Assembly: GCA_963514005.1 (NCBI GenBank)
Contig: OY740781.1
Coordinates: 178,312,001 to 178,376,000, forward strand
Source: Raja brachyura
Lineage: Eukaryota
Direction: 5' to 3'
Length of the DNA: 64,000 nucleotides
The notes below the pieces were generated by a model that saw nothing but the letters and a program-made list of their open reading frames with translations, ran no database searches and had not been told where the DNA came from. The translations under genes were made by a program, and so were the position numbers. Below are positions 2,328-37,698 of the stretch, one piece after another; position 1 is the first letter of the stretch; every line of letters begins with the position of its first letter.

Positions 2328-3625
2328 CATTTAGCAGAGCATATGCATGTGAGATCTAGCTTAGAGAATACCTTGGAACCAGCAAGTTCAGCGTATAAAT
2401 CTTGTTGAGATTGGTAGTGGATACTGTTCATCATCTACGGCCTGGTTGATGGTCACTTTGTAATCTCTACACAATCTCACTGTTGTCCGCTTTTGGAACC
2501 ACTACTATTGGAGCAGCCCAATCACTGTGATCTGTTTTAACCAGTACACCGTTTAGTTCCAACTTTTTGATTTCAGCTTCTACTTTACTTTTCAGCGAAT
2601 ATGGCACTGGTCGCAGTCTAGAGTGGACAGGTTCCACATCGGGTTGAATCCTGATGTGTGCTTGCTCACCCTTTATGCCATCATAGCTGTCATTGAACGT
2701 AGCATGATGTTTCTGCAACTACTGATCCAGTTGTGTTTGCGTTTCGACTTGGAATACAGTTTTTCCGGTCCAGATTCAGTAGGTGGAGCCAATTTTTGCC
2801 CGTCATTGTTGGCCTATTGACATAACTTGCGACAACTATTGGCAACTTCAAAGTCTTGCCTTTGTGTCATAAATCACAAACTATCTCTCCACATATCTCC
2901 AATAATTCTCCAGAGTATGTTTTCAACTACACATTTGTTTCTGTGATAGGCGTATTTGCTAAACTGGGATTCATGGGTGTCTTTTCTTATAATTGTACAA
3001 TCAGCAGCGGTATCAATACACATAGTAATGTATTGATTGTTCACTTTGACCCTTGTCTCAAAGTCTTCCTTCCCAGACCCACCGTTCGTAGTATAGATGC
3101 CGTACAGTCCAAGTAAATTACTCTCTGTTCTTCGAGGTTGTGAATCCCACGCATTTGGTTTTGTCGAGCCTTTTGTTTTGCTTTGTCCTGTGATGGTGCT
3201 CTGCATGCTGATGCAATATGGCCTTTCTTTCGACAGTTGTAGCACTTAGAGCCCTTGAACTGGCACTTATTTGCTTTGTGTTGACCATTGCATCGATAGT
3301 ACATATCAGCGCTTTTCCCTAACTTTGCTGTGAAGGCCTTTTCCATCTTGTCATGCTTGTACTTTGGAACTGCCTTTTGACTGTTGACTGTGCCAGCATG
3401 TGTTGGTCGAAACTCATGTGCACTTTGACATGCCATCTCCATGGCCAAAGCAGTTTTGCATGCCCAATCAAAGGTAAGGGCTAGTGTGTTCAGTAATTTT
3501 GATTGGATTCGCTCATCCAGCATTCCATATACAAATCTATCATGCAAAGCTCGATCCAGAAATGTTGCAAAATTGCAGTGTAGACACAACTTTTTCAATG
3601 AGATGATGACAATTTCTTCTTCCAT

Positions 3626-3727
3626 CAGTCTGAAGAAGGGTTTCGGCCCGAAACCTTGCCTATCTCCTCAGCGGGTGCAGTAGATGCTGCTGCACCCGCT
3701 GAGTTTCTCCAGCACTTTGTGTACCCT
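3626..3727 (+). mobile_element. Penelope-like element 3' tail with hammerhead-like motif, inserted in gag
   Basis: CTGAAGA-AGGGT-TTCG-GCCC-GAAA followed by the ...GATGCTGC...CTCCAGCA tail seen in other copies here. Confidence 0.65.
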
Positions 3728-8858: not shown

Positions 8859-9438
8859 GTATTTATACATTATTCTCCCTGCAAAATATCTCAAGCATGT
8901 TTCGTTTTTTAAATTAAAAGTTATAATGACATTTTTAATGGGATAGTAAACTTTACCATTGCTAAAATAATATTTTGCCCATTAAGAATTACTTTTATAT
9001 TTGTGGATTGTGATTATTCCAAAGTATTTGAAAGTATGAATACGTTGGAATAATGAAAACAATATTTAAAAAATATTTATAAAGTTCACTGACTTTTTTC
9101 TGATGCATTTGTGCTCTGCATGTTGTTTGAAGTACTTATCAAAAATTGCACCTTTTACATTCTGTTTGTGACATGATTACCTGTCCGCTTGAAGGCACTA
9201 CTTACCAGCGATTCCCTGGAATAGTGGGTGTTTTTGCTTTGCTGCTGAATTCAGGCCCATATGTTCAGATATTTTTGGAACTCCCGTTTCCACAAAACCT
9301 ACTGAGTGGTGATCTGCTGCATCGAGGCCATTTTGTTTGTCATCAAAATAAGTAAAAGCAAACTATGACAAATTAGAAATTATGCTACAAGTCAAAGAAC
9401 GGGATTTGCACAAAACAAGTTTTGAAGCAATGAAGCAT

Positions 9439-9444
9439 TTTATT
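9439..9444 (-). promoter_or_regulatory. Probable JCHAIN polyadenylation signal
   Basis: AATAAA about 210 nt after the stop codon. Confidence 0.6.
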
Positions 9445-9652
9445 TGTTCAATGAAGATAAAAAAGCAAGTACAACTATATAAAGCTAAAAATGCATTAAG
9501 AAAACACAATGTGGTTGAACAACATCTGACATGGAGGCGGAATCATGTGATATTTCAGTAGAGGGCGCTGTAGGCTGTGGATTCCAGTGGCGTTTGGGAT
9601 TCCACGCACCATCCATTTGGTTCCCATGGTGTTTTTACGGTATAGGCATTCT

Positions 9653-9749
9653 CTAGATGTCACGGCCGTAGCAGGTGTCTGCAGGGGGAGGTGGGGGTTT
9701 GCATTGGGGTTCTCCAGGTAAAATTGGCTTTTGGTTGCAATTCTTGCAG
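9653..9749 (-). CDS. JCHAIN: JCHAIN exon 4, coding part
   Basis: ttttgttgcag| CKNC..QC..DTCY; TAG at 9655-9653. Confidence 0.9.
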
Positions 9750-12700
9750 CTGCAACAAAATATATGATCAAAGATATATTTCTCATTAACACAGTCATAG
9801 AGCTATGCCACACAGAAATATGCCCTTCAGCCCAACTCCCTCATGCTAACCAACATGTCAAACTGAGCTAGCCCAGTTTCCCCTATCCATATAACCATAT
9901 AACCATATAACAATTACAGCACGGAAACAGGCCTTCTCAGCCCCTCCAGTCCGTGCCGACCATGTATTTTCCCCTAGTCCCATCTACCTGCACTCAGACC
10001 ATACCCCTCCATTCCCTTCCCGTCCATATACCTATCCACTTTAATTTTAAATGTTACAATCGATCCTGCCTCCACCACTTCTGCTGGAAGATCATTCCGC
10101 ACAGCCACCACTCTCTGAGTAAAGAAGTTCCCCCTCATGTTACCCCTAAACTTCTGTCCCTTAATTCTCATGTCATGCCCTCTTGTTTGAATCTTCCCTA
10201 CCCTCAATGGGAAAAGCTTATCCACGTCAACTCTGTCAATCCCTTTCATCATTTTAAAGACCTCTATCAAGTCCCCCCTTAACCTTCTGCGCTCCAAAGA
10301 ATAAAGACCCAACTTGTTCAGCCTTTCTCTGTAACTTAGTTGCTGGAACCCAGGCAATATTCTAGTAAACCTCCTCTGTACTCTCTCTATTTTGTTGACA
10401 TCCTTCCTATAATTAGGCGACCAAAATTGTACTCCAGAATTGGTCTCACCAATGCCTAGTACAATTTTAACATTACTTCCCTACTCCTATATTCAATGCT
10501 CTGATTTATAAAGGCCAGCACACCAAAAGCTTTCTTTACCACCCTATCTACATGCGATTCCACCTTCAGGGAACTATGCACAGTTATTCCTAGATCCCTC
10601 TGTTCCACAGCATTCCTCAATTCCCTACCATTTACCATGTACGTCCTATTTTGATTTGTCCTGCCAAGATGTAGCACCTCACACTTATCAGCATTAAACT
10701 CCATCTGCCATCTTTCAGCCCACTCTTCCAAATGGCCCAAATCTCTGTGTAGACTCTGAAAATCTACCTCATTATCCACAACACCACCTATCTTAGAACC
10801 TATCCCTCTGAACCTTTTCTATCCACTTATCTGTCCAAATATTTTTTAACATGGTAACTATATTCATCTCTGCAACTCATTCTGGTAGCTTGATCTCTAA
10901 GCCCATCATCCTTGTCATGGAGAAAAATTATCCCTCCCGTTCCTTTAAATCTCTCCCCCCCCCCCTCCCCCCCTCCACCTTAAATCTATGCTCTCTCGTT
11001 TTAGAATTCCTGCTCTGGGAAAATGCTGTGATCATCCACTTTCTTCACACTCCTCCTGATCACATATACCTCTATAAGGTCACCACACTACCTCCTACAA
11101 TCCAGGGGTAAAAGTCCCAGCCCATTTCGCCTCTCTTTGTAACTCAAGCCTTCCAATCCCTGTGACATCCCCATACATTTCTTCTCTCCCCTTATCAGAT
11201 TAATGACATCTTTCCTGTAGCTTGGCGAGCAGGACTGCACATAGAACACCAAGTGTTTCTCCAGAATTCTCTGTGGTGTTCCAGGAAAACACCACAGAGA
11301 AATAGTACAAACTCCATGAAACAGCACCCGAGGTTTGGATCTAAGCTCGCAGGAGCAGAAGACAGCAGCTTTACTAATGACACCACCATTCAGCCTGAGT
11401 TATTCAGTTGTCACTAAATATTCAGAAATGGCTCAAGGAGGCCTGATTGTAGCATACTCGAGCTGTTGTTCCGAATTACACCACGTATTAAAATTTGAAT
11501 ACCAGATCTATTTACCAGATGTCAGGTGCAGGCTGTGTTCTGAAACCTGCTCTAATTATATATTGTAAAAAAAGAGATAAAAATATAAATCATACAAATC
11601 TGAAATTTTGTAGACAAACTTGTTCCGAATAGGGGAGGTTGGATCTGAAATGTTCTCTCTGCTCCTCGTGGGAACGCTGCAATAAAACAACAATGCAAGA
11701 ACAATGTAAGAACAACGCAAGAAACATGCAATCACTCTGATGGGATTACACTATAGCCCTTGCAATAGCCCGCAGGAGATAGAGGAGCAGACATGTAGAC
11801 AGACTATGGGGAGAGTCAATAGGAATGGGGTTGTTATAATGAGTGGCTTTTATTTCCCCAATATTGACTGGGATTTAATTAGTGCAAAAGATTAGGACAG
11901 TGCAGAGTTTGTATGGTGTATCCAAAAGGGTTTCTTGAACCAATTTGTGGATTGTTCAACTAGTGGAGGGACCCTACTGGACCTGTATTCGGAAATGAGC
12001 CTGGCTAGGTGTTTCTATGGAAGAACATTTTAGGAACATGTGATTGAGGCAGTGCGGCGTAGGTTCACGAGATTGATCCCTGGGATGGCAGGACTGTCAT
12101 ATGAGGAAAGATTGAAAATGCTAGGCTTGTATTCACTGCAGTTTAGAAGGATGAGGGGGGATCTTATAGAAACATATACAATTATAAAAGGACTGGACAA
12201 GTTAGATGCAGGATAAATGCTCCCAATGTTGGGAGAGTCCAGAACCAGGGGCCACAGTCTTAGAATAAAGGGGAGGTCATTTAAGACTGCGGTGAGAAAA
12301 ATCTTTTTCACCCAGAGAGTTGTGAATTTATGGAATTCCCTGCCACAGAGGGCAGTGGAGGCCAAGTCACTGGATGGATTTAAGAGAGAGTTAGATGGAG
12401 CTCTAGGGGCTAGTGGAGTCAAGGGATATGGGGAGAAGGCAGGCACGGGTTATTGGTAGGGGACGATCAGCCATGATCACAATGAATGGTGGTGCTCGCT
12501 CGAAGGGCCGAATGACCTCCCCCTGCACCTATTTTCTATGTTTCTATGAACTGTGATCACAACTCCATACATTTTAAGATAGTTATGAAGAGGGAAAAGT
12601 CGGGACCTAGGGGCATAAGTACTAAATTTGGATAAGGCAGAGTATAACATTATTCGGCAGGAGCTTCGGAGAGTACATTGGGAGCAGCATTTATGGAGAA

Positions 12701-15700
12701 GTCCACATCAGATATTTGGTATTTAGCTAAAGAATACCAAAGCTGATCAGAGTTGAGGATCAGCATGTTCCGGCAAGGAGAAGGGAGAAGGATGGCAAAG
12801 TAAGAGAATCTTGGGTGGTAAGAGAGGTTGTCAATGAGTAAAAGGAAACATATGTAAGGTTCAGGAAGATGTAATCAGACAGGGCCTTCGGGGAATATAG
12901 AGCAAGCAGGAAATAACTCAAGCAAGGAATCAGAATGGTTGTTAGGGGTTGTGTTATGGTCTGAGTCTGACTGATGTATTGATTACCACCTTTTTGTGAT
13001 AACGAATCGATGGACCACAGCACATAATTGCCCACAGTCTCCAATAATTAGTCTTTTCATTTTTTCAACCATGTGGATACATTCACATTTGAAAATGCAT
13101 TTACTTACACAATGTGTATATCTCTCATGAGCTGCTCCACGCCTCCACTATTAGGCAATGCAGACATTTTGGATGTGACAGTCATGCATTTACATTGTGA
13201 TTTAACTAGAAGGTGACTTTCCGCATCAGCTGTAAGAAAATAGACGTGGTTATTAGCTTTCTGAATCAGTAGCACTTATTATAAGTGTGGAAGTTACAAT
13301 GTCCAGGTGCAAATTGAATGTATCTGTTCATTGGCTTACGAGTACAGAAAAAACTATAAGTAAAGACAAGATAAGATACCGTTTATTGTCGTTTGAACCT
13401 AAGTTCAAACAAAATTTCGTTTCTGCCGTCATACGAACAAGAAAAAAACCAAGACACAATTAACACAATTTACACAGACATCCATCACAGTGAATCTCCA
13501 AACACCTCTTCACTGTGATGGAAGGCAAAGTCTTGTCTCTCTCCTGTTCTTTATTCTTCTCCCCGATGTTTGTATGTATGAATGTAAAGATAAGATATAG
13601 AAACAAAGAACTGCACGTGTTGGTTTATGCCAAAGATAAGCATTTCTCCAGCATCTCTGGAGAAATAGGATGAAACAACAGTCTGAAGAAGGTGCGCTGG
13701 GGTTGGCACTGGCTGGCAAGAGGAGATGATGGGAAAGGAAAATCAGATGAGCAGAATTCTAGATGATGGTAAACACCATCCCTGAATGCCCAGACCTCAT
13801 CAGCGTAGTTTAATGAGAAATCAGTTTTTGCAACATGTATTACAGATATCAGAACTATCTACTACAGGTGTCACTGTGCAAAATAACATATCTTGATTTA
13901 TTCAGAAAATAATAACTTTATTCAAGTCTTTGTTACAAATGGTAAATTGCTCTATATGACCCATGAGTAAAACCATTTAAAGATTCTCTGAAAGAGAAAA
14001 TGTTTATTAAAATGTTAAGAACAAGGAAAAAGAAGTCGGCCTTACGTACCCTTGTGCCTCTGTTGTTTGTTAAGATCATTGTCGTTCTTTCCCCCCAACA
14101 TTGTTTTCTTGTACCAAGCTCATTATCTTAGTATCTAGAAATCTATTGCTCTCTGTGACTCTCTTCCACAAATTCCTTGGATAGAGAATTCCTAACAGTA
14201 ATTATCTCCAGAGTGATTTTTTTTGTTGTCATCTGAGACCTGAATGGTCAAACCTTATTTAGCCTCCCCAGTCAAGGGAAATAATTCCTCAATCTATCCT
14301 GTCAAGTCTCATAAAGATTTCATATGTATCAATGAGATGACCTGTTATTCTCATTAATCTAAGAGATTGATGTAAGAGAGCCTGGTCCCAATCTGTTTCA
14401 TCAAACCTCGTACAACACAACCTCTCTCGTTAGAATCAGCCTGGTGAACCTTTGTTGCATTTTCTGTATGGCGAATCTACCCTTCCCAAATTAGGCAGGT
14501 ATGTACAGCCTCAGGAAGCCTAGATAATTGTTTTAAGCCATTTGTATTTTTGTACTCAAATCCTCTTGCAATAAAAGCCAACATAGCTCATTACATGTTG
14601 TGCCTCCATGCTATCTTTCAATAATTCATGTAAATGGATACTCAGATTCCTCTAACAATTACATCATTCAATCTTTAATTACTTAAAAAGACTCTGGCTT
14701 TCAATTTTTTCTACCAAAGTGTACAAATGTACATGTTGCCACAATCAGTTCTTGCCTGTTTTCCTGAAGCCTCTGCATCCGCATCACAACCAACATTGGT
14801 ATCTAGCAATGTAGCAAGTACGAATGTGGAGATTTTACATGATATCCAAATGGACATAGAATGTGAACAGTAGTTGCTCAGTCACTCTCTTTCACAGATC
14901 TCTGTAACTTCTGGCAGATGAGTGCTGGCCTTCCCAGTGACACCAACATGCCATAAACATTCATCACAAACAAGGGGACCGGAACATTATCTAAGCTGAC
15001 GGATTTGTGGTTATCTGGTTTACCTCACCTAAAATAATGTGGTGATAGCAGAGCTCTGAAAAATTATATCAATTATTTTATAATACTTAATTCTTTTAAA
15101 AATCCTATACCAAAAATCATCATGCCTTGAAGATTTATTTACAAAAAATCCATTATGTTTTTCCTTTACCTTTTAACATTTACATTTATTATATTTTTCC
15201 TTGATTTGCGTTTTGTTTTGTGTTGTTGATATTTTATTTGGATATAATTATATTTGGATATATTTTATCTGGATATAAAATATTAAATTCAAATGTGCTC
15301 CGTTCACTTAGTGTTCAATACAATCTCACTGGTATCTTTAACATATAGATTTTCCCTCTTATTGTTATTTTTCTAAATGCATTTATATTAAAAATTAGAT
15401 TTTTGGTTTTAACTTTGATGATGCTTGCAATTATTTTTCATGTTCTTGTATGTACTCCTGATGTAGCTCTGAGCAAAGATGTGGTTATCTTATTCAAAAT
15501 TAGTATTATAATGGCTGGCATTAGAAACGTAAATGTCTCTTTTTTGGCAGAGAGTATGCGTTTGGCACCGGGCTCAACTCGCATAGGGTTGAGGTAGAGG
15601 GTGGTTATATCAGTAGTCAAGTAATAAATGCAAGAACATGAAAAAAAATTGAAAGTATGATCAAAGTTAACAAATTTATATACATTAGTTCGTTTGAATT

Positions 15701-17009
15701 AAATCATGAAATAATGTATTTTGGAGTCTTTGAAATATAGTAGAGTTTTTGGAAACATAACAGTTTTTAAATTTGCTTTATGTGTGATTTTAAAATTTGT
15801 AATCATTTGTGAATCTGACAATTTATTTATACATTTATATGCTACAATTGCGTTTTACTATTCTGTCAGAATTTTAAATCTTTTCATTAATTTTTTTAGT
15901 TTTTTTCTGTTCTATTTATCTCAAAAAGTCTTAATTAATTGTCAAGGAGGCCCAATATAGCAGTGACCTATCAGCTTGGGTATGGGTATCAATATGGAAT
16001 GCTTTAGGACCTGTTATGACACTTTGCTTAAATAACTAAATGGAGATAAAGAATCCTAGCCCCTCAATTGATGAGGTGGTAACATTCCCTTTCTTTTGGT
16101 TAATGTGTTATGGATTGACACTGGAACTACCGGTAATCTGTAGTTAATTTATGGTGAGTAGAAACTAAAACCTCTGCAGCAGAAACTCATTTCAAATGGT
16201 TGCTCAAGTTTGGGAGGAATTACATAATGAGTAACTTTTATTTTAAATAGTCAAGATATGCCATGAAATGCACATTCATGGCCACAGGGAATACACAGCA
16301 AGAACAATGTTATCATTCATAAATCAATGGGACCGCTGCATGCTGAGGTGATCATATTCATCTGCAAAGAGACTGCATGAGCAGACGATGTTTAAAGATA
16401 TAGCATGGAAACAGGCCCTTCAGCCTTCCATGCTGACTATCAATATATTGACTATCACATGTTCTATGTTATCCCACTTTCTCATCCACTCTCTACACAT
16501 CAGGGACAAGTTACAGAGGCAAATTAACCTACAAACCCGCACGTCTTTGGAATGTGGGGGAAAACCAGAACACCGAGTGGAAATCCGAGCAATCACAGAA
16601 AGAACATGCAAACACCACACAGACAGCACCCAAGGTCAGGATCGAACCCGGGTCTCTGGTATTGTGAGGCAGCAGCTCTACCAGCTGCACCACTGTGCCA
16701 CTCTGAAGTACTGTCCACAAATCAATTTACAACCAGTCTAATCGATGATTTCTGCACATGCTTGTACCAATGTCTCCACAATCAATCAACTCATTGTTGT
16801 TGTTTCTCGTTATTTAGGAAGAAAATGTCTTCATTATTATTTTGTTTTTGTACTTTTGAGGTTTCTATTGCTAAGAAAACATGAAACATTTACTCATCAC
16901 ATTATCACATTGCACAATGAAAAATGTAATCATTAAACGCCACACCTGCTGCAAGAATTGTGAAAAGCAGAATTGCTGCAAAAGGCTTCAGCATTTGTTT
17001 GTTCTTCAT
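9653..17009 (-). CDS. JCHAIN: Immunoglobulin J chain gene, 4 coding exons, 120 aa, C-terminally short
   Basis: Spliced product MKNKQMLKPFAAILLFTILAA-ADAESHLLVKSQCKCMTVTSKMSALPNSGGVEQLMRDIHIV-VPTRSRENISDPTSPIRNKFVYKISDF-CKNCNQKPILPGEPQCKPPPPPADTCYGRDI*. GT/AG introns with phases 1,2,2. Hallmark CKC and RENISDPTSP motifs. Confidence 0.95.
9886..10797 (-). mobile_element. CR1 LINE 3' part in JCHAIN intron 3
   Basis: ORFs 10456-10779 and 9974-10357 are CR1 RT; (ATATGGTT)n tail; same subfamily as 46205-47447. Confidence 0.92.
11596..11676 (-). CDS. JCHAIN: JCHAIN exon 3 (81 nt)
   Basis: ttattgcag| VPTRSRENISDPTSPIRNKFVYKISDF |gtatga; conserved NIS glycosylation site. Confidence 0.97.
11776..12960 (+). 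mobile_element. Old CR1 endonuclease-region fragment with a younger CR1 3' piece nested at about 12040-12548 (JCHAIN intron 2)
   Basis: Decayed VVI..F.FPNIDW..LLDL motifs flank a CR1 3' end with (TTTCTATG)n. Confidence 0.8.
13109..13229 (-). CDS. JCHAIN: JCHAIN exon 2 (121 nt)
   Basis: ttttcttacag| .. LLVKSQCKCMTVTSKM..RDIHIV |gtaagt; compare human IVLVDNKCKCARITSR..RNIRII. Confidence 0.95.
14010..14890 (-). mobile_element. Ancient CR1 fragment (JCHAIN intron 1)
   Basis: Highly diverged match to the CR1 RT 3' region seen elsewhere in the window. Confidence 0.6.
16395..16700 (-). mobile_element. tRNA-derived SINE (V-SINE/HE1-like)
   Basis: Reverse GGCACAGTGGTGCAGC A box, GGGTTCGATCC B box, TTCCAAAGACGTGC core. 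Confidence 0.85.
16946..17009 (-). CDS. JCHAIN: JCHAIN exon 1 (signal peptide, 64 nt, phase 1)
   Basis: ATG AAG AAC.. hydrophobic core, ends GCA G|GTGTGG. The donor is weak but size and phase fit. Confidence 0.8.
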
Positions 17010-18068
17010 AACTGGAGCTTCACCTTCTAGGATCTTCCTTTTGTCTTGTGGCTCTCCACTTAGTCTCATCAGAGTGCTCAAACAAAATGAAAGACCAAAG
17101 TGTTTTGCCTGTTTTTTGAATTTGTGTCTTTAATTAGCTTCATATTATTTTCGGTTCCATTTTAAGACGTAGCTTCAGACAGAAACCAGATGCTGGATCT
17201 ACTGCCTTTGATTGGGGAGTTTCAAAAATCAAAAACGCAACTGAAATTAATTCAACCACAACTGGATAGCTTGCAATGATTTTGCTTAGTAAAAATAAAT
17301 CCAGTTTTGGCTCTAAACAGTGCAAGAAACAGTAGAGACCCACAGATGAAGTGAGATGTAAAGCATGGTGACAGTAATATGGGCTGAAAAAACAAACAAG
17401 TTTAAAAAACCACGTATTAATAAGGACAAACTAAAGTGTTTAACAGGTATATTGAGCGGGTGGCTGAAGAAATATGGAGCACTCCAAAGACAGATGCAAG
17501 GGACATTTTAAATGCAAATCAGAAAACCGCAGAATAGTTAAAAATATTGCTTGAATCCTCACAATAGGGATATGAGAAAACTAAAAATAAATCTATTGAA
17601 GATATTTACTGGGTTTTTAAGAAATAAAAGAAAAGTAATGGTAAAAATAATAGCTTAGAAATGAATTTATAACAATATTTTTCAGTGTTAAATCAATATT
17701 AGCGATCTCTGTGAAACGGCTTTGAACATTTCTGACAGGAGTGCGTTTATTGGTGCCTGCGTGAAAACTAGGGGATGATTTCCCTTATGAAATGCTGCTG
17801 TGCTTCTTCATGCAGACAAGGCGTTATTACCCAAACCTCGTGCTTCTGCCATATATCCTCACACCTCTGACTTCCTTTAAAGAGTCACGCCACGATGCAA
17901 GGAGAAATTCTCCAGCCAGCGGGGAATGTTCACAAGGAAAGATTGAATTCTCTGCTTCTGGGTTGGGAGGGAAGGGGTTGATATATCCTGGGGGCAGAGA
18001 AACCTACACTTTCTGGAGTAGAATAGTGTGTGGAGGAGGCATCTTCCTAGTCCAAGGACATTGCTTTT

Positions 18069-18383
18069 AGGGCGGCACGGTGGCGCAGCGGTGGAGAGAC
18101 TGCGTTCTAGTGCCAGAGACCCGGGTTCGATCCTGACTACGGGTGCTGTCTGTATGGAGTTTGTGTGTTCTCTCTGTGATCATGTGGGTTTTCTCCGGGT
18201 GCTCCAGTTTCCTCCCACACTCCAAAGATGTACAGGTTTGTAGGTTAATTGGCTTTGGTAAAAATTGTAATTTGTCCCTAGTGTGTAGGATGGTGCTAGT
18301 GTCCAGGGTTCGCTGGTCGGCGTGGACTCAGTGGGCCGAAACGCCTGCTTCCACGCTGCATCTCTAAAACTAAAACTAAAAAC
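18069..18383 (+). mobile_element. tRNA-derived SINE (V-SINE/HE1-like)
   Basis: GGCGGCACGGTGGCGCAGCGG, GGGTTCGATCC, CTCCAAAGA core, (CTAAAA)n tail. Confidence 0.9.
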
Positions 18384-18894
18384 CATGATGGTATGGTTTC
18401 AGTGAGATCACAAATGCCTTCTCTGAGCGTTGTGAAATGCTGCAAATGCAGATTCCCCTCTGAATGATAAAGTCACACCAACCAAAAAGTCAAAAATTCC
18501 CCACCATCAAATTTGTTTATTTTTATCTTTATTATGCCGCAGTGATTTATAATCGTTACCAGTAGAGACCAGCTGCAGAATTGTGAGGCTGCATTTCAGC
18601 GAGCTGGTGACCTTCATTTTGACCAAAGGCAACAGATACACTTGCGTGAGGTAGATCTTGGCGACTTCAGAGATCACCCTTGTATGTGTGGACTTGCCTG
18701 GTGTGAGGATATCCTGCGTGATAGGTTGATAAAAGAAGACCTTCAAAACCAGGGATGGATAATGTGTTGGAATACCCATGCTTTTCTCAAATAGTTTCTC
18801 ATTGCTCATTTCTCAGCTGATGAACATGAAACTACTCGTGTGTTTGCATAAATTATCGGTGTTTCTGAACTAGCTCATGAAATTATCGGTGTTT

Positions 18895-20100
18895 CAGCAC
18901 TACCCCTCCCACTTCGACAACAGAGACACCTTCGTGAAAATGCTGTTCATCGACTTTAGCTCAGCATTTAACACCATTTTCCCCTCCAAATTGATCACTA
19001 AGCTCATCGACCTGGGCATTGACCCCTCCCTCTGCAACTGGATACTGGACTTTCTAACCACCAAACCCCAGTCTGTTAGGTTAGACAACCACACTTCTTC
19101 AACCCTCACCCTGAACACCGGCGTTCCACAGGGCTGTGTGCTGAGCCCTCTCCTCTACTCCCTCTTTACCTATGACTGCGCACCTGCACATGGTACTAAC
19201 ACCATCATCAAGTATGCAGATGATACAACGGTGATTGCCCTCATCAGCGACAATGATGAGTCGGCCTAAAGGGAGGAGGTCCAGCTCCTAGCAGCATGAT
19301 GCGCTGACAACAACCTGGCCCTTAACACCAAGAAGACCAAGGAGCTCATTGTGGACTACAGAAGGTCTAGGGGTGGCACGCACACCCCCATCCATATTAA
19401 TGGTTAAGGAGGTGGAACGTGTTTCCAGCTTCTGGTTTCTGGGGGTCAACATCTCTGATGTCCTCTCTTGGACCCACAATACCTCAACACTGGTCAAGAA
19501 GGCTCACCAGCGTCTCTTCTTCCTGAGGAGACTAAAGAAGGTCCATCTGTCTCCTCAGATTCTGGTGAACTTCTACCGCTGCGCCATCGAGAGCATCCTT
19601 ACCAACTGCATCACAGTATGGTATGGCAACTGCTCTGTCTCCGACCGGAAAGCACTGCAGAGGGTGGTGAAAACTGCCCAACGCATCACCGGTTCCTCAC
19701 TCCCCTCCATTGAGTCTATCCAGAGCAAGCGATGTCTGCGAAGGGCACGCAGCATCGTCAAGGACTGGTCTCGCCCCAACCACAGACTGTTTACCCTCCC
19801 CCCATCTGGGAGACGCTACAGGTCCCTCCGTTCCCAGACCAGCAGGTTCAGGAGAAGCTTCTTCCCTGCGGTTGTTACAATACTTAACTTTGCACCTCAG
19901 TGATTGCCAATCACCCCCCCCCCCCCCCCCCCCCCCCCGAAAAGTGCACTACTGCTGTTGTATATACATATATATATTACTGTTCCATTAATCTGTGTTC
20001 GCACTCCTGGGTGAGATGCTAACTGCATTTCGTTGTCTCTGTACTTGTACACTGCACAATGGCAATAAAGTTTGAATCTTTGAATCTGAATCTGAATCTG
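18895..20100 (+). mobile_element. Rex1/Babar LINE, 5'-truncated
   Basis: [36 protein letters not shown]; (TGAATC)n tail. Confidence 0.93.
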
Positions 20101-21490
20101 AAGCTGATATTGTTCCCAGGATCATAGAATGGGTTGATGTATGTTTGTGCATAACTGTATAGCACTGCCCCAAAGAATACAGAGGGATTGTGTTTGTGCA
20201 TTTATATAATGCTGCTTTAGAGCCTTCAGTATCAGAAAAAAATAGTGCTGTTGAGAGTGAAGGGTGCCAGTTGTTATTTAGACCAATGAAGATGAACATT
20301 TCACTAGAGATGAATGTTGGCCTTTGAACTACGATTGATTTCATTGATAGTTATTGGAATACATCGCTTTATAATAATGAAATAATCATGCCATGACAAC
20401 TCCCCTCCCCCCCTCTTTGTTCACCTTTATAATTTCACAGCATAGTTATTTCTCATTATAAATTCTGATAGCTATTTATTCAATCCTGCAAACAGGCGAG
20501 GTTATGTAGAATTCCCCAGACGATGAGCTTACACACAAGTTCTGTTCTGCAAGGCTTGGATGAGGACTTTGATAATCTATGCACATTAAGATGCTTCGAG
20601 CATTGTCCTAACATTGTCCTAAAACTGCATTTAACATTAAGGGATACGAGGAGTTCTGCTCCAAACCATTTACATGCCTTTGTGCAGAGCCTTATGTCTA
20701 TCCCCTCCAGCATGGAAGTGGCAGCCACTTGGAGCCAACCATGCTGTAGTGTTGGGTGCCAGAGATCTCTGCACAAGTAGAGGGCACTAAAACGTTGAAC
20801 GGTATAGTTGGATTTCAGACTTCTACTGTGCAGTTTCAGATCAAGGCTTTATGACTCTAGATTCATAAAGGTGCCAGGGCATGTGAACAATCTGTCCTCT
20901 ATCAGATTACTAGATTGTTAAAAATGTTTGCCAGAGGAAGAGGCAATAAACATGTGCTGCACAAATCAGCTGCCCTGTCACACAGAAACTGGGACGGTGA
21001 TTTTACCATTGTCACCACGCCATTGTGTTTAATGTTGCTTGTCAGCGAGGAGCTATTATGATAACATGATGTTATGATAAGTACAGTGAGGAGCTGGGCC
21101 ATCTACAGTGCAGATGCAGAACTGCTCAAGGCAATCAATCTTTCATGGTGCACAGCCTCGTCCATAGCCAGTGAGCCAACATCCACAGCTGCAGCCTTTA
21201 GCAGAATGCAACACAGGAACATTAAGGTGGATGAAGGGATGTGTCAGACAAGACAAGCATGAAAGCAAGAAGTGCTGGATATACTCAACTGGTCATGCAG
21301 CACTCTTGGAGAGAGGAACAGAGCCAATGTCTCAGGTCCCTCTCTACAGATTCTGCTTCCAAAAGGGATTGGAATGATAGATAAGTTAGGTCCTGTATGC
21401 ATCAATGTGGTCAATTGATGTTTTGTTGATCAAAGGCAGACTGAAGGTGAGATAGGAAGCATGGAATTATTAGTTTTTTGTCTAGTATGG

Positions 21491-21640
21491 GGGGGGGGGG
21501 GGTGTGGAAGATTGCAACCTTCATGTGGTCCGCCCTGTTTCGATGAATGCAATCAACCTGGTGTGCACAATCAAATAAGATCAAATAGAACAAGTTGTCC
21601 TACAACTTTAGGCTGTGCATGCCACATGCAAGAAGAAAAA
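21491..21640 (+). mobile_element. Short retroposon 3' end with (AAG)n tail
   Basis: 11-bp TSD gtctagtatgg (21480-21490 / 21641-21651); second copy at 55253-55396. Confidence 0.75.
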
Positions 21641-21854
21641 GTCTAGTATGGCACGTTGGCCTTGCTAGTGTATCAGCATTTCCCAATGACTTGTGAGTGG
21701 GACAATGCTGTTGTTTACTTGATCTACTGCAGTACCTGTGCTTAAAGTACCCTAACGTGCTGCAAGATAGGAGTTGCATGATCTAGATCCATTCTAGTTT
21801 ATGGCTTGAAGACTAACCTGTTGGTATCAGTGTACTCATTACTGCCTAGTCTTA

Positions 21855-22520
21855 GTTTAGTTTAGTTTAAGTTAGTTTAGTTTAGTTTAGTTTAATTTAT
21901 TGTCACATAAACTGAAGTATAGCAAAAAGCTTTTGTTGCGTGCTAACCAGTCAGTGGAAAGGTAATACATGATTACAATCAAGCCATTCACAATGTACAG
22001 ATATATGATAAAGGAAATAATGTGAATAATGTTTAGTGCAAGATGAAGCCAGTAAAGTCCGATCAAAGATATTCTCCAATGAGGTAGATAGTGGTTCAGA
22101 ACTGCTCTCCATGTGTGGTAAGATGGTTCAGTTGCCTGATAACAGCTGGGAAGAAACAATCCCTGAATCTGGAGGTGTGCGTTGTACACTTCTATACCTT
22201 TTGCCCGATGGGAGAGGGGAGAAGAGGGAGTGGACAGGGTGGGACTCATCCTTGATTATGCTGCTGGCCGAGGCAGCGTGAGGTATAAATGGAGTCAATG
22301 GAAGGGAGATTGGTTTCTGTGATGGTCTGGGCTGCGTCCACAATTCTCTGCAATTTCTTGCGGTCTAGGATGGAGCTGTTCCCAAACCAAACCATGCTGT
22401 GATGCATCCTGATAAAATGTGTTCTATGGTGCATCTGTACACGTTGGTGAGGTTTGTTGGCAACATGCCAAACTTCCCAAACCTTCTAAGGAAGTAGAGG
22501 CGTTGATATGCTTTCTTGGC
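21855..22520 (-). mobile_element. Rex1-related LINE 3' fragment
   Basis: WFGNSSILDRKKLQRIVDAAQTIT..LPSIDSIY; (CTAAA)n tail. Confidence 0.8.
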
Positions 22521-25500
22521 CAGGAGATAGAAACTGTCAGGGCAAGTTGTTGATGTGCATTTTGCAGGTGTTATATAATTTAACCCCTTTGTGGGGTCAA
22601 GGAAAGAGCGTTCACGTCACGGCCCTGTTTTCACCAATCTTTCCACCACCATGCACAAGAAGTACAAGAAGCGCAAGACAGACACCATTGTGTGCAGATG
22701 CCGAGAAGTGTGTTCAGCTCTGGCTGAACAACATCTAATCTTGTGTGTGGACTCAATAAGAAGAAGACGCCCCTTTGTGAGTGTTATAGCAGGGGGCAAC
22801 CTTTAGGTGGATGAATGGGGTGCATTTAATCTGGCTTTAGTCAGTGATGCCAATGTTCTTGTGTTGTTGAAGCTGATGGCGTGCTAACAAACGGAAAGTA
22901 ACGCATGAATCCCTGACTTATATAACGTAGATGGTGGAAGGCAGGGCAAGTTAGTTTCAATCAGTGTCACAGAATACACAGCCTTTGACTGACCATTGTA
23001 ATTCCAATAATTATATAGATGTCTTGTTTCAGTTTCAGACCAACGGTGACTCCTACAATGTTGCTTTCATGACTTCATGAAAGTTAATACCGTTGAATGT
23101 CAAGGAAAGTTAGATACATTATTTCTTGTAAGAAACGAGTATTGTCTCCAACGAGGACTTGATGTGACAGTAAGCACATGTATGTACCTCTAAAAAGTTT
23201 TTAAAAATATTTTTCAATTTTTTAATATTACAAAATGATGACTAAATTGAAAAAGTAAAATGTATGAATTAAAGTAGATGGTCACACCCACAAGCAGCTT
23301 AAGCAGCTTATAGTATGATGATCTGCCATAGACAACAACAGCAAGGACCAATAGTAACATAGAAACAGAAATATAGGTGCAGGAGTAGGCCATTTGGCCC
23401 TTCTAGCCAGCACCACCATTCAATATGATCATGACTAATCATCTAAAATCAGTACTCCATTCCTGCTTTTTCCCCATATATCTTGATTCCTTTAGCCCTA
23501 AGATTACATCTAACCCAATACGTGTACCTGCATCTTTTAGTCTACAAACAAAGCACTGTCTCAAATTTGGGCAAAACACAAAGTGCTGGAGGAACTCAGA
23601 AGGTCAGGCAGCATTTGTGGAGGGAATGGAAAGATGGTGTTTGGGTCGGGACCCTTCTTTAGTCTGAGCTTCTCCAGCACTTTGTGTTTTGCTCCAGATT
23701 CCATTATCTGCAGTTTCTTGTGTCTCCACTGTTTCAAACTTGTGGGGGCATATTTCACTTGTCACATAAGTCCAGTACTGAATGATGTCTGTATTTTGAG
23801 GCCTCATTGTCTTCATGTTTGCAATTCAATTCCATTCAAGCATTTTCTCATTTAAAACAAGACAGGAACATGTCAATATACAAACCAAGTAGGAGCAAGA
23901 GTGGGCTACCTGGCACTTTCAGCCTGTTCTGCCATTCAAAAACATTGCAACCTCAATCTGAATTCCTGCCTACCCAGCTAATCTTTCACCCCTTGCTCAT
24001 CAAAATTGTTTCTACCTCTGAATTAAAATATTCAAGGTTGCTGTTTCTACTTCCCTTTCAGGAAGACATTGGAAAAACACTTTGTCCGTGATAGAGAAAA
24101 AGTGCCTCAAGCTGCCTCAACCATGTCTTAAATCAGTGACTCCTTATTTTTAAACAATGTCCCTTAATTAAAGATTCTCATAAAACATGAAACGTCCTTT
24201 CACATCCACCATTTAAAGCCACCTTGGGATGTTATCAGTATGTTCATGCCATTCCAACAAAAAAATGGGGCTCCCGATATCATCTTCTTCCATCCCCTCC
24301 TTCCCTTCCTTCTTCTCATCTCCTACTGTTCCTGCGCCTCCTCTTCCTCCTCTTTCTACCTTATAGCATATTGGTCGGTGTGGGCGAGTGGGGCCGAAGA
24401 GCATCTTTCCACGCTGTATGACTCTATGACTCTATAACTATAACCACCTCCCAGATGTTGGCAAATGCTGACTCTATAATTGATAGGTTAAAGAAGGGTT
24501 CTGATCCGAAATGTCACCTATCCATGTTCTCCGGAGATGCTGCCTGACCAACTGAGTTAATCCTGTATTTTGTGTTTTTAATTATAAAGTGGGATATCTA
24601 CCACATGCTGTGCTGCAAGTTCCAGAGTGCGTGGTCTGGTGTGGGAAGTCAGTTAAAACAACTGATTCTGCGAGACCACAAAGTACCTTCCAACTAACTC
24701 TAGACTTGGAAACCTGCTGTACATTGGGGTGCGCAGAATGTGAGAGTGAGATGATGACTTTAATGTTAACATTAATGGCCATGCAAGGGCCGGTCGTGTG
24801 ACTTTCCTTGTGCAGATAAGACCACTGCAAAGAAGGATTAGTCAGATGGTGTGTAGGTTCTATGAAACTCAGTAGCATCAGTAAGGGTTTGCATGTAACA
24901 TGGTGTGTAGCAGCTGAACGTTAATTCAGATGATCTTGTCCGTTAGAATTGTGAATATGCTATAAAATTATATCTCTAAAGTTTTGAGATGAACTTTAAT
25001 ATCTAACTCAGATCAACAAACCTTGCACAATAGGTGAGGGATTTGGAAAAGGGTAGGGATAGTTTTAAGTTACAGTAGACAATGCCTTTATTCAAAAGGT
25101 TAGTTTTGAATGGACAAAGTTTTCAGTCATTTGTTGATGAGTTATTTTGTGCCTCGATAACTCAGAATTTATGCTATTTCTCGTAGGGAAGTGAACTACC
25201 CGCACATCTGTTTTCTGCTTTGTAGATTTATACTGCTCCTCCCTATATTTGTTTAAATATTGTAAGATGTCACCCTATGTCCTTTCATTCAAGATACATT
25301 TATTTGTCCCATGTACCAATTGGTACAGTGAAATGTGTGAAATAAGTTCATTCTGACTTATGGCAGGTGTGAAGGTTTTACCATAATAACTGTATGTCTA
25401 AATGTAATCTAGAATAAGATTTCCAGTGGTTACAAACAGGAAATAACCGTTCTTTAAACCTATACACCTGTCATTTTGCATATCCTGATAGAATTAATTG

Positions 25501-25947
25501 CTGACTAATATAATGAAGACATTCCATGTGAGAATCTTGCTACAGGACTTTTAGGCAGATTTTTATCATTTTTCTTGCCTCAAAAGCAAAACAATTAGTT
25601 TCCAAATTTAAGGAAAATGGCAGAAATATTCTAATAATAGCTTGAGTCTGTAATAGAGAAAAGTGCGCCAAAGTATTTCGTAAGAGCACAGTCAGATTAC
25701 AACAATGATAAGATAAACCTTAGGAAGGGTCATAGAAAAGTTAGCTGAACAGATGAATCTTAAGGAAAAATTAAAAGGAGGCGAGATGGAGGAAGTTATA
25801 GAGAAAAATTCAGAGTGTGTGACGGACAAAATTGGCAAAGATAAACTATTGCTGTGAAATACAATGAGGGAACATAGAAAAGTACAACGCTGGAACAGGC
25901 CCACAATGTCTACGCCAAACCGGATGCCAAATTAAACCAATCTCCTC

Positions 25948-28900
25948 TGCCTGTACATGATCTATATCCCCCACTTCCTGTATATCCATGTGCCTATCCA
26001 AAAAACACTTAAATTACTCTTTAGTTTAGTTTAGTGATACAGGGCGGAAACAAGCCCTTCGGCCCACCGAGTCCGCACCGACCAGCGATCCCCGTGCATT
26101 AATGCTATCCTACACACACTAGGGATAATTTACATTTATACCAAGCCAATTAACCTCCAAACCTGTACATTTTTGGAGTGTGCGAAGAAAACGAAGATCT
26201 CAGAGAAAGCCCACGTGGTCACGGGGAGAACATACAAACTCCATACAGATAGCACCCGTAGATCAAACCCAGGTCTCCAACACTGTAATAGGTGTGAGGC
26301 AGCAACTCTACTGCTGAACCACCATGCCGCACAGTAATATTTAGTTCAGTTTAGTTTATTGTCATGTGTACTGAGGTACAGTGAAAAGCTTTTTGTTGCA
26401 CGCTATCCAGTCTGTGGAAAAACAATACATGATTACAATCGAGCTGTGTACAGTGTACAAATACAGGATAAAGGGAATAACATTTAATGCAAGATAAAGT
26501 CCGGTAAAGTCCGGCTAAAGATAGTCTGTGTTTCTCCAATGAGGTAGATGGTAGGTCAGGGCAGCTCTCCAGTTGGTGATTGGAAGGTTCAATTGGCTGA
26601 TAACAGCTGTGAAGAAACTGTCCCTGAATCTAGAAGTATGCATTTTCACACTTCTGTACCCTTTCCCTGATGGGAGAAGAGGGAATGTCTGGTGTGAGAC
26701 TCGTCCTTAATTATGTTGGTGGTTTTGCCAAGGCAGCATGAAATTTAGACGGAGTCAATGGAATAGATGTTGGATTCTGTGATGGTCTGGGCTGCGATCA
26801 CCAATTAAGAACTTATTAAGCGGAGCACTAATTGCACGCAGATATAAACATTGATAGATGAACAGATTAAGATATTGCTCCAGTGAACCAAACTGTGTGG
26901 ATCCAGGAGTAACGAACCAGCCTAATGTATGCAAAGTAAATGGGGCCGGGATTACAGCTAATTCCATGCTTTCTCCACTTAATTACGTGGAATAATATAG
27001 GACCAACTCACAAATATGTTTTCGGTTTTTTCCAGATAGTAGCGCTGAGTGAACTAAGGAGCCGAGTGCTGATAATTACTGAAAGACTGCAAATTCCTGA
27101 GAGGACAGTAATGTTCAATGTACAGTCTGCTTTGATGCAAGATTTGACAATGGAACACAAATAAACATATTAAAGATGGAGATAAACTCATGAGAAGCGA
27201 TGGCTCATGAATACAGGTTGTGAAATGTTGTGCAACAACCTGTTCTAATTGTGTTGTGAAATCAAAAACAGTTTGAGTGCTAACTCATGGGGTCACCACC
27301 ACAATTTGTACTCTATCATTGGTGAACGAGGGCAGGGACATTATATTGAGCAGAATTCTCACAATTTAAAAACATTCAGTAATACTTAAAGGGAATTGTG
27401 ATACAAAGAAAACATTTTATCAGATGGATCACAGCTTGGTTTGGGAACAGCTCCATCCAAGACCGCAAGAAATGCAACCAATTGTGGATGCAGCTCAGAC
27501 CATCACACAATCCATCCTTCCTTCCATTGACTCCATTTATACCTCACGCTGCCTCGGCAAAGCCAGCAGCATAATCAAGGATGAGTTGCACCCTGGCCAC
27601 TCCCTCAAAGGGCTGAATGGCCTATTCCTGCACCTATTTTCTATGTTTCTATGCTTGAGTATATGGCAATAAAACTCGACCACTTGATTTTGAAGCATTC
27701 ATGCATGGTGGAGGTATAATGTAGTCGTAGAGTGATGCAGTGTGAAACCCCTCCAACACCCTCCCCCCCATTCAGTCGCTCCACTCCCTCGCCGGGTACC
27801 CCGCAAGGCCAGTGATCTGTGATCATTCAGCCCCCCCCCACTTTCAAAAGCGCTCCGTGGTCCCTGCTACACTATCTTGGGAATATCTCATCACATGGTG
27901 GATCAAGGATCGTTAGAGGTGGAAATAAATGCTGGCCTTTGCTTGTTCTTGGATAATTTACATTACATTAATAAGGGACATTATATTGAGCATAATTCTC
28001 ACAATTTAAAAACATTCAGTAATACTTAAAGGGAATTGTGATTACAAGAAAACATTTTATCAGATGGATCACAGCTTGGTTTGGGAACAGCTCCATCCAA
28101 GACCGCAAGAAATTGCAGCCAATTATGGACAGAGCCCAGCTCAGACCATCACACAATCCATCCTTCCCTCTATTGACTCCATTTATACCTCACGCTGCCA
28201 TGGCAAGGCCAGCAGCATAATCAAGGACAAGTTGCACCCTGGTCACTCCCTCTTATCCCCTCTTTGATCAGGCAAAAGGTATAGAACTGTAAAAACGCAC
28301 ACCTCCAGATTTAGGGACAGTTTCTTCCCAGTTGGTATCAGGCAACTGAATCAACCTACCACAACCAGAGATCACTGCTGAACTACTATCTACCTCATTG
28401 GTGACCCTTGGACTATCCTTGATCGGGCTTTGCTGGCTTCACCTTGCACTAAACATTATTAACTTGTCATGTACCTATACACTGTAAATGGCTCAATTGC
28501 AATCATGTTTCATCTTCCTCCTGACTGGATAGCACGCAACAAAAGCTTTTCACTTTACCTCGGTAAATGTGACACTCCACTATCTTGGGAATATCTCCAT
28601 CACACAGTGGATCAAGGGTAGTTAGAGGTGGAAATAAATGTTGGCCTTTGCTTGGTTGAGATCTTAGATAATTTAACAAAAAGAGTTGCTGAGGGTCGTA
28701 TGATTGATGTATAGATGGACGTTCACAGAGCTGACAGAGACACGATAGGACAAGCGGCCTTTTCAGTGCACCATCACTGTATCATTATTAACAGCATTGT
28801 GTCTCTGGCGACACGGACAATCAGTTTGTACGTATATTTAACGCGATGATAAGGCACAGAGTTGGGTGAAAGGTTGGTTTGTTAGTCTACATGGAAACAT

Positions 28901-30133
28901 ATAATAGTGTAAACTGTGGGAGGGACAAGAATCAGAGACAGGCTGGTGAAGTGAGCAGACAAATGGTGAGTGAAATCCCATGGACCGAAATGTGAAGAGA
29001 AATATTTGAGTATGAAGAGGGGCAACATTCTGTGTTGGTAGTGACATTACAGTAGGAGGCAGGACTGAAGGAGGGAACACACAAGTCTCTGGCAGGGCAA
29101 GTTTGGAATGGTGCACAAGGGTAGATGGTATCCTTGGATTTATACATTAGTTATATTGAGAAATTGCAGAATCAGTAGTAAGAAAGGCAAATGCAATGTT
29201 ACATTTATTTCAAGAGGACTGGAATACAAAAACAGGGATGCAATGCTGAGGCTTTATAAAGCACTGGTCAGACTGCCCTTGGATTATTGTGAACAGTTTT
29301 GGGCCGCATATCTGAAGAAAGATGTGCTGGTGTTGGGGAGGGTCCAGAGGAGGTTCACGAGAATTGACCTATCTCTCCGCCTCAACCCCATTCTCCTGCC
29401 TTCTACCCATAAACCCTGACATGCACACTAATCAAGAATCTATCTATGTCTGCCTTAAACATATCCATTGACCTGGCCTCCACAGCCTACTGTGGCAATT
29501 AATTTCACAGATTCACTACCCTCTGACTAAAGAAATTCCTCCTTATCTACTTCCTAAAGAAACGTCATTTTATTCTGAGGCTATGACCCCTGGTCCTAGA
29601 TGCTTCTGGTTAGAATCATCGATCACTACTCCCCTCCATCCCACAGATGCTGGGAGTTCCTTCAGCAGATAATTTATTGCAAAATAAAAATATGTTTGAC
29701 AGTTTTAGCATGCAGTTTGCAGATGCCACTTCAGTAGGTGGTATTGTGGACAGTGAAGACATTTGTCAAGGATTGCAGTGGGATCTTGATCAGCTGGGCC
29801 AGTGGGCTGAGGAATAGCTGATGGAGTTTGGTGCAGGTGGGTGAGGGGTGTTTTGGGATTTTGGGAGGTCGGGTTGAGATGGGACCTTCATGTTGTATGT
29901 GGGCCCTGGGGCCGTGGTGGAGTAAGGGATGTAGGGGTGCTGGTGCATGGTTCGCTGGAGGTTGTGTCATAGGTGGGTAGGATGATGGAGAGGGCTTATT
30001 CTACATTGGCCCTTGGCGTTCAGGGTATTTAGTGTGGAGTTTGGAAAGTTCTGTTGCAGTTGTACAGGATGTTGGTGGGGCCACATTTGGAGCGCTGTGT
30101 TCAGTCTTGGTCACAGAGGTGTCATTGGGCTGG
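25948..30133 (+). repeat. Segmental duplication block A (composite of SINE, Rex1 and CR1 fragments and unique DNA)
   Basis: Colinear high-identity match to 41937-45385. Contains an internal duplication (about 27334-27960 vs 27973-28670). Confidence 0.92.
26020..26330 (-). mobile_element. tRNA-derived SINE; duplicated at about 42010-42310
   Basis: Reverse complement of the SINE at 18069. Confidence 0.8.
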
Positions 30134-30778
30134 AGGGAGAGTACAGAGAAGATGAGTGAGGATGTTGCTGGGACTGAGGGGCCTGAGGTGTAAGATTGGG
30201 ACTTTGTTCCTTGGAGTGCAGGAGGCTCTAGGGGTGATCTTGTGGAAGTGTATAGAATCATGGGGGGAATGGATGGGGTGAAGGCATGGTATCTTTTGCC
30301 CAAGGTGGGGAGGTTGGGATCCAGAGGACATAGGATTGGGGTGAGAGTGGCAAGAACTAGTGGGAACATGAGGGACAACTTTTTCTCTTGGAAGATGGTG
30401 GGTATTTGGAAATAATCTGCCAGAGGAGGTTGGTGAGGCAGATACTATAACAGCATTGACAAGTCACTTGGGCAGCTACATGTTTTAGAGGGATATGGGC
30501 CAAATGTGAACAAATGTGATTAGTTGATATGGGACATCTTGGTCAGCGTAGATGAGTTTGGCCGAATGATTTCCATGCTCTATCAGTTCAAGTGTTTAGG
30601 TGCTGATATACAGTATATATTTTCAAGTATCATACATATTGATGAACAATTTATAATAAATGTATAATTGAATCTATAATTAAAATAACTTTTCAACTAT
30701 AAAGCGTGTTTCACGACATCGAGATTATCTTAAATGAAATGAATCTCTTTGGAATGAATTCTCCACTGTAGCACTTAC

Positions 30779-31200: not shown

Positions 31201-31221
31201 CTGGAAGATAACAAATGATCC

Positions 31222-34083: not shown

Positions 34084-34149
34084 GACTAAGCACGCAGCCT
34101 TGAGGTGCTCCCGTGCTGATTGTTATCGAGGCTGACTGTTGACAGTAGT

Positions 34150-37624: not shown

Positions 37625-37698
37625 TGTCAGATTCCAGTCTTCTCGAGCCTTGCCTTTCTGATTCAGTTGGTTTTTCTTGGTGCCTTCTAATTCCTCTC

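What the first reader, a model, noticed from the sequence alone, without database searches (positions are those of the whole stretch)
9555..9749. J chain truncated exactly before the last disulfide hairpin
Seen: exon 4 stops at TCYGRDI*, retaining six cysteines. Established (human numbering): C15 and C69 bond to Ig tailpieces, C13-C101, C72-C92 and C109-C134 are intrachain, and the C-terminal region is needed for pIgR binding. Here the C109 and C134 equivalents are lost together and the other pairs remain. The DNA after the stop still resembles the lost tail in shifted frames (S-R-E-C, Y-T-V-K-T-P, Q-T-P-L, N-P-Q), but needs several indels. Inference: either a natural minimal J chain that polymerises IgM without the secretion hairpin, or local assembly errors. 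The segment between C72 and C101 is also short and has a PPPPP run.
Basis: partly seen in the sequence, partly recalled or inferred. Interest (0 to 1): 0.75.

Follow-up and report, generated by a model that had tools for sequence, protein, structure and literature searches.

The report
Skate-wide shortened antibody J chain
The early stop in this antibody J chain gene is real and is shared by every skate sequence examined, with the lost tail still readable as a fossil behind the stop; the short protein likely still joins IgM into pentamers, and it is already in public databases, though apparently little discussed.

Summary
Real, not an assembly error. The four-exon JCHAIN gene (minus strand, 17009-9653) encodes 120 aa with six cysteines and stops five residues after the C101 equivalent. 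The same stop is in an inverted second copy 0.77 Mb away, in read-derived contigs of 4 of 4 runs from four organisms, and in 7 of 7 database skate J chains, including GenBank AAN62851.1. All nine short chains form one clade (96/95). A net +1 frameshift made the TAG. Behind it lies a fossil of the sawfish/stingray-type tail (score 94, 0 of 500 shuffles), with a second frameshift and an 18-nt deletion that removed C134. The short, proline-rich C72-C101 stretch is general in elasmobranchs. Other rays and squalomorph sharks keep both terminal cysteines (8 of 8). Galeomorph sharks, elephant shark and coelacanth lack the pair through different lesions, so the hairpin disulfide looks ancestral and repeatedly lost outside tetrapods. 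That the short chain still joins IgM is inferred, not shown. A 94-nt skate exon 4 is already tabulated, without comment, in Kawasaki 2024.

The parts
16946..17009 (-). JCHAIN exon 1 coding part (ATG at 17009; signal peptide; 64 nt; phase-1 intron follows)
   Evidence: same length as skate and sawfish exon 1 in Kawasaki 2024 Dataset S1
13109..13229 (-). JCHAIN exon 2 (121 nt; CKC motif = C13, C15 equivalents); 6 nt shorter, in frame, than the paralog and other skates (127 nt)
11596..11676 (-). JCHAIN exon 3 (81 nt; NISDP motif with the N-glycosylation sequon)
   Evidence: PF15097 match 36.3 bits, cut-off 27
9656..9749 (-). JCHAIN exon 4 coding part (94 nt; C69, C72, C92, C101 equivalents; five-proline run)
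   Evidence: 94 nt equals the value for thorny and little skate in Dataset S1
9653..9655 (-). TAG stop created by a net +1 frameshift (C101 codon to fossil C109 codon is 25 nt; 8 codons in Pristis)
   Evidence: sequence; unchanged in the paralog and in 4 of 4 runs
9634..9654 (-). fossil tail, piece 1 (RECLYRK; holds the former C109 codon at 9648-9646), now 3' UTR
9524..9625 (-). fossil tail, piece 2 (34 codons, back in the reading frame after a second frameshift near 9630; an 18-nt gap near 9596 removed the C134 codon), now 3' UTR
   Evidence: 18 of 34 residues identical to Pristis
9439..9444 (-). AATAAA, candidate polyadenylation signal about 210 nt after the stop
   Evidence: motif only

Best explanation
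This is a skate JCHAIN gene whose exon 4 ends at a frameshift-made stop five residues after C101, and the 98-residue mature product likely still joins IgM through its two retained tailpiece cysteines while lacking the whole C-terminal hairpin. Shown: gene anatomy, the stop, its presence in both genomic copies and across skates, the fossil tail, and secretory IgM-type tailpieces with a penultimate cysteine in the same genome. Inferred: one frameshift in the skate ancestor, fixed because the hairpin was dispensable; the tail then decayed as 3' UTR (the order of the three lesions cannot be told). Inferred from human structures: the core strands pack with the IgM tailpieces, C15 and C69 bond to two of them, C13-C101 and C72-C92 close the core. 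The lost part carries the human pIgR contacts (R105, A132, Y134 in the review's numbering) and part of the CD5L site (N106, K107), functions thought to be absent or different in elasmobranchs.
For: Stop identical in the inverted paralog, which differs by 2-5% and in its intron insertions. No change at the stop and no indel between 9546 and 9749 in contigs of 4 of 4 runs from four organisms, each bridging the stop (X1 may be the assembly's own source, leaving three). 7 of 7 skate database proteins from Amblyraja, Leucoraja, Raja and Rhinoraja end at the same residue. The nine short chains are one clade, 96/95, on the shared core alone (in the 32-row tree with tetrapods that fork was drawn open). 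All nine keep six cysteines and the sequon, with no break before C101. Core identity to Pristis is 71 of 89, like Hypanus-Pristis 71 of 91, while the fossil is 18 of 34 against 30 of 40. No long-tailed exon 4 elsewhere in the genome: six matches, the two copies only. 8 of 8 selected CH-secretory loci end in a tail with a cysteine at the expected place, 7 of them penultimate. A J-chain-like component in skate 18S Ig is reported (Hagiwara 1985, title and citing sentence only). Kawasaki 2024 states that elasmobranch J chain serves IgM polymerisation only.
Against: No transcript or protein of this gene was examined here. In human IgM the C-terminal hairpin makes extensive contacts with Fc-mu and stabilises the pentamer (review), so its loss may matter. 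Coelacanth, which has lost IgM, shows a similar truncation, so truncation can go with loss of the joining role. Between the two copies 8 of 11 changed codons are non-synonymous, which shows no purifying selection at that small scale. Other batoids and squalomorphs keep the hairpin cysteines, so the hairpin is doing something in them.
Confidence: 0.8

Rival explanations
1. The short protein is real but no longer joins IgM. It is degenerating, or has been redirected to an Ig-independent, chemokine-like role, and skate polymeric IgM forms without it or binds it poorly.
For: The hairpin contacts Fc-mu in human IgM. Coelacanth has a like truncation and no IgM. Skate copies are duplicated among CXCL genes (thorny skate), small (98-100 aa) and basic (pI 8.6 and 9.0). 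8 of 11 codon changes between the copies are non-synonymous.
Against: Both tailpiece cysteines are kept in 9 of 9 skate chains, whereas coelacanth, elephant shark and Pristiophorus have lost the C69 equivalent and galeomorphs the C15 equivalent. Core conservation equals that of long-tailed rays. A J-chain-like component was reported in skate 18S Ig (title only).
Confidence: 0.13
2. Read-through, ribosomal frameshifting or alternative splicing yields a longer, functional chain from the fossil tail.
For: The second fossil piece is back in the reading frame and still 53% identical to Pristis; in the paralog the second stop is a sense codon.
Against: In the window copy a TAA follows five codons after the TAG. 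C134 is deleted and C109 is out of frame. The fossil frame is broken differently in different copies: a 1-nt deletion in the paralog, and a Trp-to-stop change and a 2-nt deletion in single contigs of organism E, depths 7.1 and 3.6. No second exon 4 lies near either copy.
Confidence: 0.04
3. The short form is primitive, a chemokine-sized J chain from before the tail evolved.
For: JCHAIN derives from CXCL genes, whose exon 4 is short.
Against: The tail survives as a fossil behind the stop, and skates nest inside batoids that have it.
Confidence: 0.01
4. Local assembly errors broke a full-length gene.
For: One base of this exon (9723) differs from all four runs, so single-base errors or private alleles occur here.
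Against: Same stop in the paralog, in 4 of 4 read-derived contig sets and in 7 of 7 database skate proteins. Three separate lesions would be needed in both copies.
Confidence: 0.01

Closest known systems
Skate J chains: Raja eglanteria AAN62851.1; Amblyraja radiata XP_032873082/212/228; Leucoraja erinacea XP_055502907; Rhinoraja longicauda XP_078268268, XP_078262610
   Same: Same end point, six cysteines, 94-nt coding exon 4, five-proline linker; an inverted gene pair about 0.7 Mb apart as in Amblyraja.
   Different: The window copy is two residues shorter (exon 2 of 121 nt) and has a few private substitutions; its paralog has the usual 122 aa.
Long-tailed batoid and squalomorph J chains (Pristis, Narcine, Hypanus, Hemitrygon, Mobula, Heptranchias, Pristiophorus)
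   Same: Core 65-80% identical; same short C72-C101 stretch; their tail is what the fossil matches.
   Different: They keep both C109 and C134 equivalents (8 of 8) and a Pro/Thr-rich extension (cut short in Narcine).
Nurse shark J chain (AAO14897.1) and other galeomorph J chains
   Same: No C109-C134 pair; associated with pentameric IgM and thought not to serve secretion (reviews).
   Different: Loss by in-frame deletion of the C134 region; they keep C109 and the extension, and lack C15 (11 of 11).
Elephant shark (NP_001279351) and coelacanth (XP_006003786) J chains
   Same: No cysteine after C101.
   Different: Elephant shark has an in-frame deletion and keeps the extension; coelacanth ends 12 residues after C101 and has also lost C69 and C72 equivalents.
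Human J chain (PF15097; PDB 6KXS, 8BPE, 8WYR)
   Same: Four exons with phases 1-2-2, CXC in exon 2, NISDP sequon, six of eight cysteines.
   Different: Human has hairpin 3 with C109-C134, the pIgR and CD5L contacts, and a longer hairpin 2.

Membership tests
JCHAIN (PF15097) | four exons, intron phases 1-2-2, exons 1-3 near 64/127/81 nt | tested here: met
   64, 121, 81, 94 nt with GT-AG ends; criterion from Kawasaki 2024
JCHAIN (PF15097) | CXC motif in exon 2 and NISDP sequon in exon 3 | tested here: met
JCHAIN (PF15097) | profile match over the curated cut-off | tested here: met
   exon 3 alone 36.3 bits against 27; little skate orthologue 83.5 bits; exon 4 alone gave no Pfam match
JCHAIN (PF15097) | cysteines for C13-C101, C72-C92 and the two tailpiece links present | tested here: met
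   by alignment; the bonds themselves were not tested
JCHAIN (PF15097) | linkage to CXCL cluster A and anxa5 | not tested
   neighbouring genes of this genome were not searched; a single motif scan of the window found no CXCL exon 2
JCHAIN (PF15097) | covalent incorporation into polymeric IgM | not testable with these tools
   needs protein work
tetrapod-type secretory J chain | C109-C134 hairpin and C-terminal pIgR contact residues | tested here: not met
   stop precedes them; not filed under this type
skate-type short J chain | ends five residues after C101; 94-nt coding exon 4; groups with skate chains on the core | tested here: met

The most novel reading that the evidence does not exclude
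The C109-C134 hairpin is as old as jawed vertebrates, older than the secretion role it has in tetrapods, and has been lost at least four times by four different lesions (skates, galeomorph sharks, chimaeras, coelacanth). The skate chain is then the smallest natural J chain that still pentamerises IgM, about 100 residues and near chemokine size, and the skate-sawfish pair is a natural experiment that separates joining from whatever the hairpin did first.
Probability: 0.55. Interest if true: 0.5.

Novelty: new member of a known kind. Interest (0 to 1): 0.33.

Why it matters
It defines a natural minimal joining core for IgM, useful for IgM engineering and for the structure-based test of the chemokine origin that Kawasaki et al. 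ask for. It also corrects a sampling bias: the shark J chain most cited (nurse shark) is a derived form, while sawfish, stingrays and squalomorph sharks have the tetrapod cysteine set, so the hairpin probably did something before mucosal transport. The sequence fact itself is already in databases, which caps the interest.

Tried and rejected
No run on record as RNA was listed among the holders, and no RNA run was laid, so expression of this gene and the transcript end are unexamined. AlphaFold2 models were low in confidence (little skate mean pLDDT 53.8; Pristis 48.6). The Pristis model has a strand pair at 127-141 between its last two cysteines, but at pLDDT near 55 this is not relied on. Foldseek with that model returned J chains as the top 15 hits at rmsd 12-15 A, driven by sequence. 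A complex of four skate CH4-tailpiece chains with the little skate J chain gave no verdict (score 0.01, mark 0.34); it is used neither for nor against. A dN/dS reading from the two copies rests on 11 codons and is uninformative. The 32-row tree with tetrapods did not resolve the skate clade; the 21-row elasmobranch tree did (it left out the four tetrapods and seven of eleven galeomorphs). Hohman 2003, Castro and Flajnik 2014 and Flowers 2021 are not held. Ten literature searches listed no paper on the skate truncation. Earlier scan notes: none.

Full report
Gene anatomy. The finding is exon 4 of a JCHAIN gene on the minus strand. Exon 1 coding is 17009-16946, exon 2 13229-13109, exon 3 11676-11596 and exon 4 starts at 9749; all junctions are GT-AG with phases 1-2-2. 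The spliced frame is 120 aa with six cysteines and ends at TAG 9655-9653, five residues after the C101 equivalent. The mature chain is about 98 aa, 10.9 kDa, pI 8.6, with one sequon. An AATAAA lies about 210 nt downstream.

Is the stop real? Yes, on three lines. First, the genome holds a second, inverted copy at G000:C1:179.09-179.10 Mb. It has all four exons, encodes 122 aa, differs by 2-5% per segment and in its intron insertions, and has the same stop. A search of the genome with the long Pristis protein gave six matches, all exons of these two copies. Second, contigs of 4 of 4 public runs laid, from four coded organisms out of the 22 runs listed, bridge the stop with no change in it and no indel between 9546 and 9749; X1 may be the assembly's source, so three are independent. 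Third, all 7 skate proteins found in the protein collection (Amblyraja three, Rhinoraja two, Leucoraja, Raja eglanteria) are 122 aa and end at the same residue. Six are RefSeq genome models. The Raja record AAN62851.1 is a GenBank-only entry; that it is a cDNA clone is my inference from the accession type and comes from no call. No RNA was laid here.

One origin. On the shared core only, with tails trimmed, the nine short chains form one clade at 96/95 within batoids (21 rows). In the 32-row tree with tetrapods that fork was open. Copies group by species (window with its paralog 83/83, Rhinoraja pair 99/94), although thorny skate has an inverted pair at a similar spacing. That points to concerted evolution or repeated duplication, so the two copies argue against assembly error but are not independent evolutionary samples.

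The fossil tail. A frameshift-aware alignment of the 156 nt from the stop onward gives scores of 94, 86 and 73 against the Pristis, Hypanus and Heptranchias tails, with 0 of 500 shuffles reaching them; human and Xenopus tails score at chance. The alignment has two pieces: 9654-9634 (RECLYRK, holding the old C109 codon) one base out of frame, and 9625-9524 back in frame after a second shift near 9630, with six codons including C134 missing near 9596. From the C101 codon to the old C109 codon is 25 nt, against eight codons in Pristis and seven in stingrays, so the lesion is a net +1 shift that itself forms the TAG. The fossil is 18 of 34 identical to Pristis where coding tails are 24-30 of 40, while the core is as conserved as in stingrays. 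It is broken differently in different copies, as expected of untranslated sequence.

The wider pattern. I counted cysteines after C101 in 26 of the 28 elasmobranch proteins held (left out: an older Scyliorhinus model and a partial Chiloscyllium model). Skates have none (7 of 7), other batoids and squalomorphs two (8 of 8), galeomorphs one (11 of 11, all also lacking C15). Elephant shark has none in 15 of 15 records read from a 22-member cluster (one also lacks C101), through an in-frame deletion that spares the terminal extension; coelacanth ends 12 residues after C101. Of 163 non-chondrichthyan rows, 162 have the C101 motif and 158 of those have two cysteines after it; three exceptions are labelled partial and one is a pig isoform. 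The Pristis tail aligns with the Xenopus and human hairpin at both cysteines, and PF15097 covers Pristis 24-146 to model position 130 of 134 in one stretch. The simplest reading, an inference, is an ancestral eight-cysteine chain and at least four separate losses of the last disulfide outside tetrapods. The short, proline-rich C72-C101 stretch is elasmobranch-wide.

Mechanism. In human polymeric Ig, C15 and C69 bond to tailpiece cysteines, the core packs with the tailpieces, and the C-terminal part binds pIgR and also contacts Fc-mu (PMC7956327); N106 and K107 contact CD5L (PMC11525585 and PMC11437284, passages). The skate chain keeps the first set and loses the second. This genome encodes secretory tails with the partner cysteine: 8 of 8 loci picked from 150 C1-set matches for their frame length, 7 with it penultimate. 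Kawasaki 2024 (PMC10801876, whole main text read) says that the elasmobranch C-terminus is unique and that the chain serves polymerisation only. Reviews say the same of nurse shark (PMC4279169, PMC6795676, PMC5192425, passages). Hagiwara 1985 reports a J-chain-like component in skate 18S Ig (title and citing sentence in PMC12410970). That cartilaginous fish lack pIgR is recalled and was not tested. So the likely story is relaxed need for the hairpin with the joining role kept (0.8). Against it: the hairpin helps hold the human pentamer, coelacanth shows that a like truncation can go with loss of IgM, other rays keep the hairpin, and the two copies differ mostly at non-synonymous sites (8 of 11).

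What is known. The short skate protein is in GenBank and RefSeq. Dataset S1 of Kawasaki 2024 lists a 94-nt coding exon 4 for thorny and little skate against 187-256 nt for other cartilaginous fish, with no remark on it, and the word 'truncat' does not occur in its four supplements (rows for jchain and part 3 of 4 read). Tacchi 2013 (PMC3743840, passages) discusses missing cysteines in nurse shark, lungfish and coelacanth and has no mention of skates. Ten full-text searches listed no paper on the truncation, the fossil tail or the repeated loss, but Hohman 2003, Castro and Flajnik 2014 and Flowers 2021 could not be read and may cover part of it.

Verdict. A real, inherited, skate-wide truncation; a new member of a variant already on record. 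The added value is the mechanism of loss and the comparative pattern. Interest 0.33.

Noticed in passing
window 9723: All four runs laid read G on the plus strand (Thr, as in the paralog and other skates) where the window has A (Ile): a private allele or a single-base assembly error.
   Followed up: partly
window 13109-13229: Exon 2 has a 6-nt in-frame deletion relative to the paralog and other skates, in the region of the first hairpin; not covered by the reads laid.
   Followed up: partly
window 8859-26189 and G000:C1:179085597-179103172: Inverted segmental duplication at 90-98% identity holding both J chain copies; thorny skate has a similarly spaced inverted pair, yet copies group by species.
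   Followed up: partly
window 25948-45475: A multi-kilobase repeated unit that occurs several times here and at G000:C1:179.04-179.08 Mb; not characterised.
   Followed up: no
proteins P0017-P0021, P0031, P0130-P0136: 11 of 11 galeomorph J chains lack both C15 and C134 but keep C109, so the orphan C109 could stand in as a tailpiece link; speculation.
   Followed up: no
proteins P0016, P0221, P0108: Pristiophorus, elephant shark and Xenopus laevis each lack the C69 equivalent, so one tailpiece cysteine seems enough in several lineages.
   Followed up: no
protein P0005: The Narcine J chain keeps the hairpin cysteines but its Pro/Thr-rich extension ends early, a separate truncation.
   Followed up: no
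L043:415-885: An IgM-type CH4-secretory frame that runs nine residues past the usual end to a second cysteine.
   Followed up: no
window 32158-33525, 46279-47343, 49870-50541, 3041-3667: Retroelement remnants: reverse transcriptase, endonuclease and zinc-knuckle matches.
   Followed up: no
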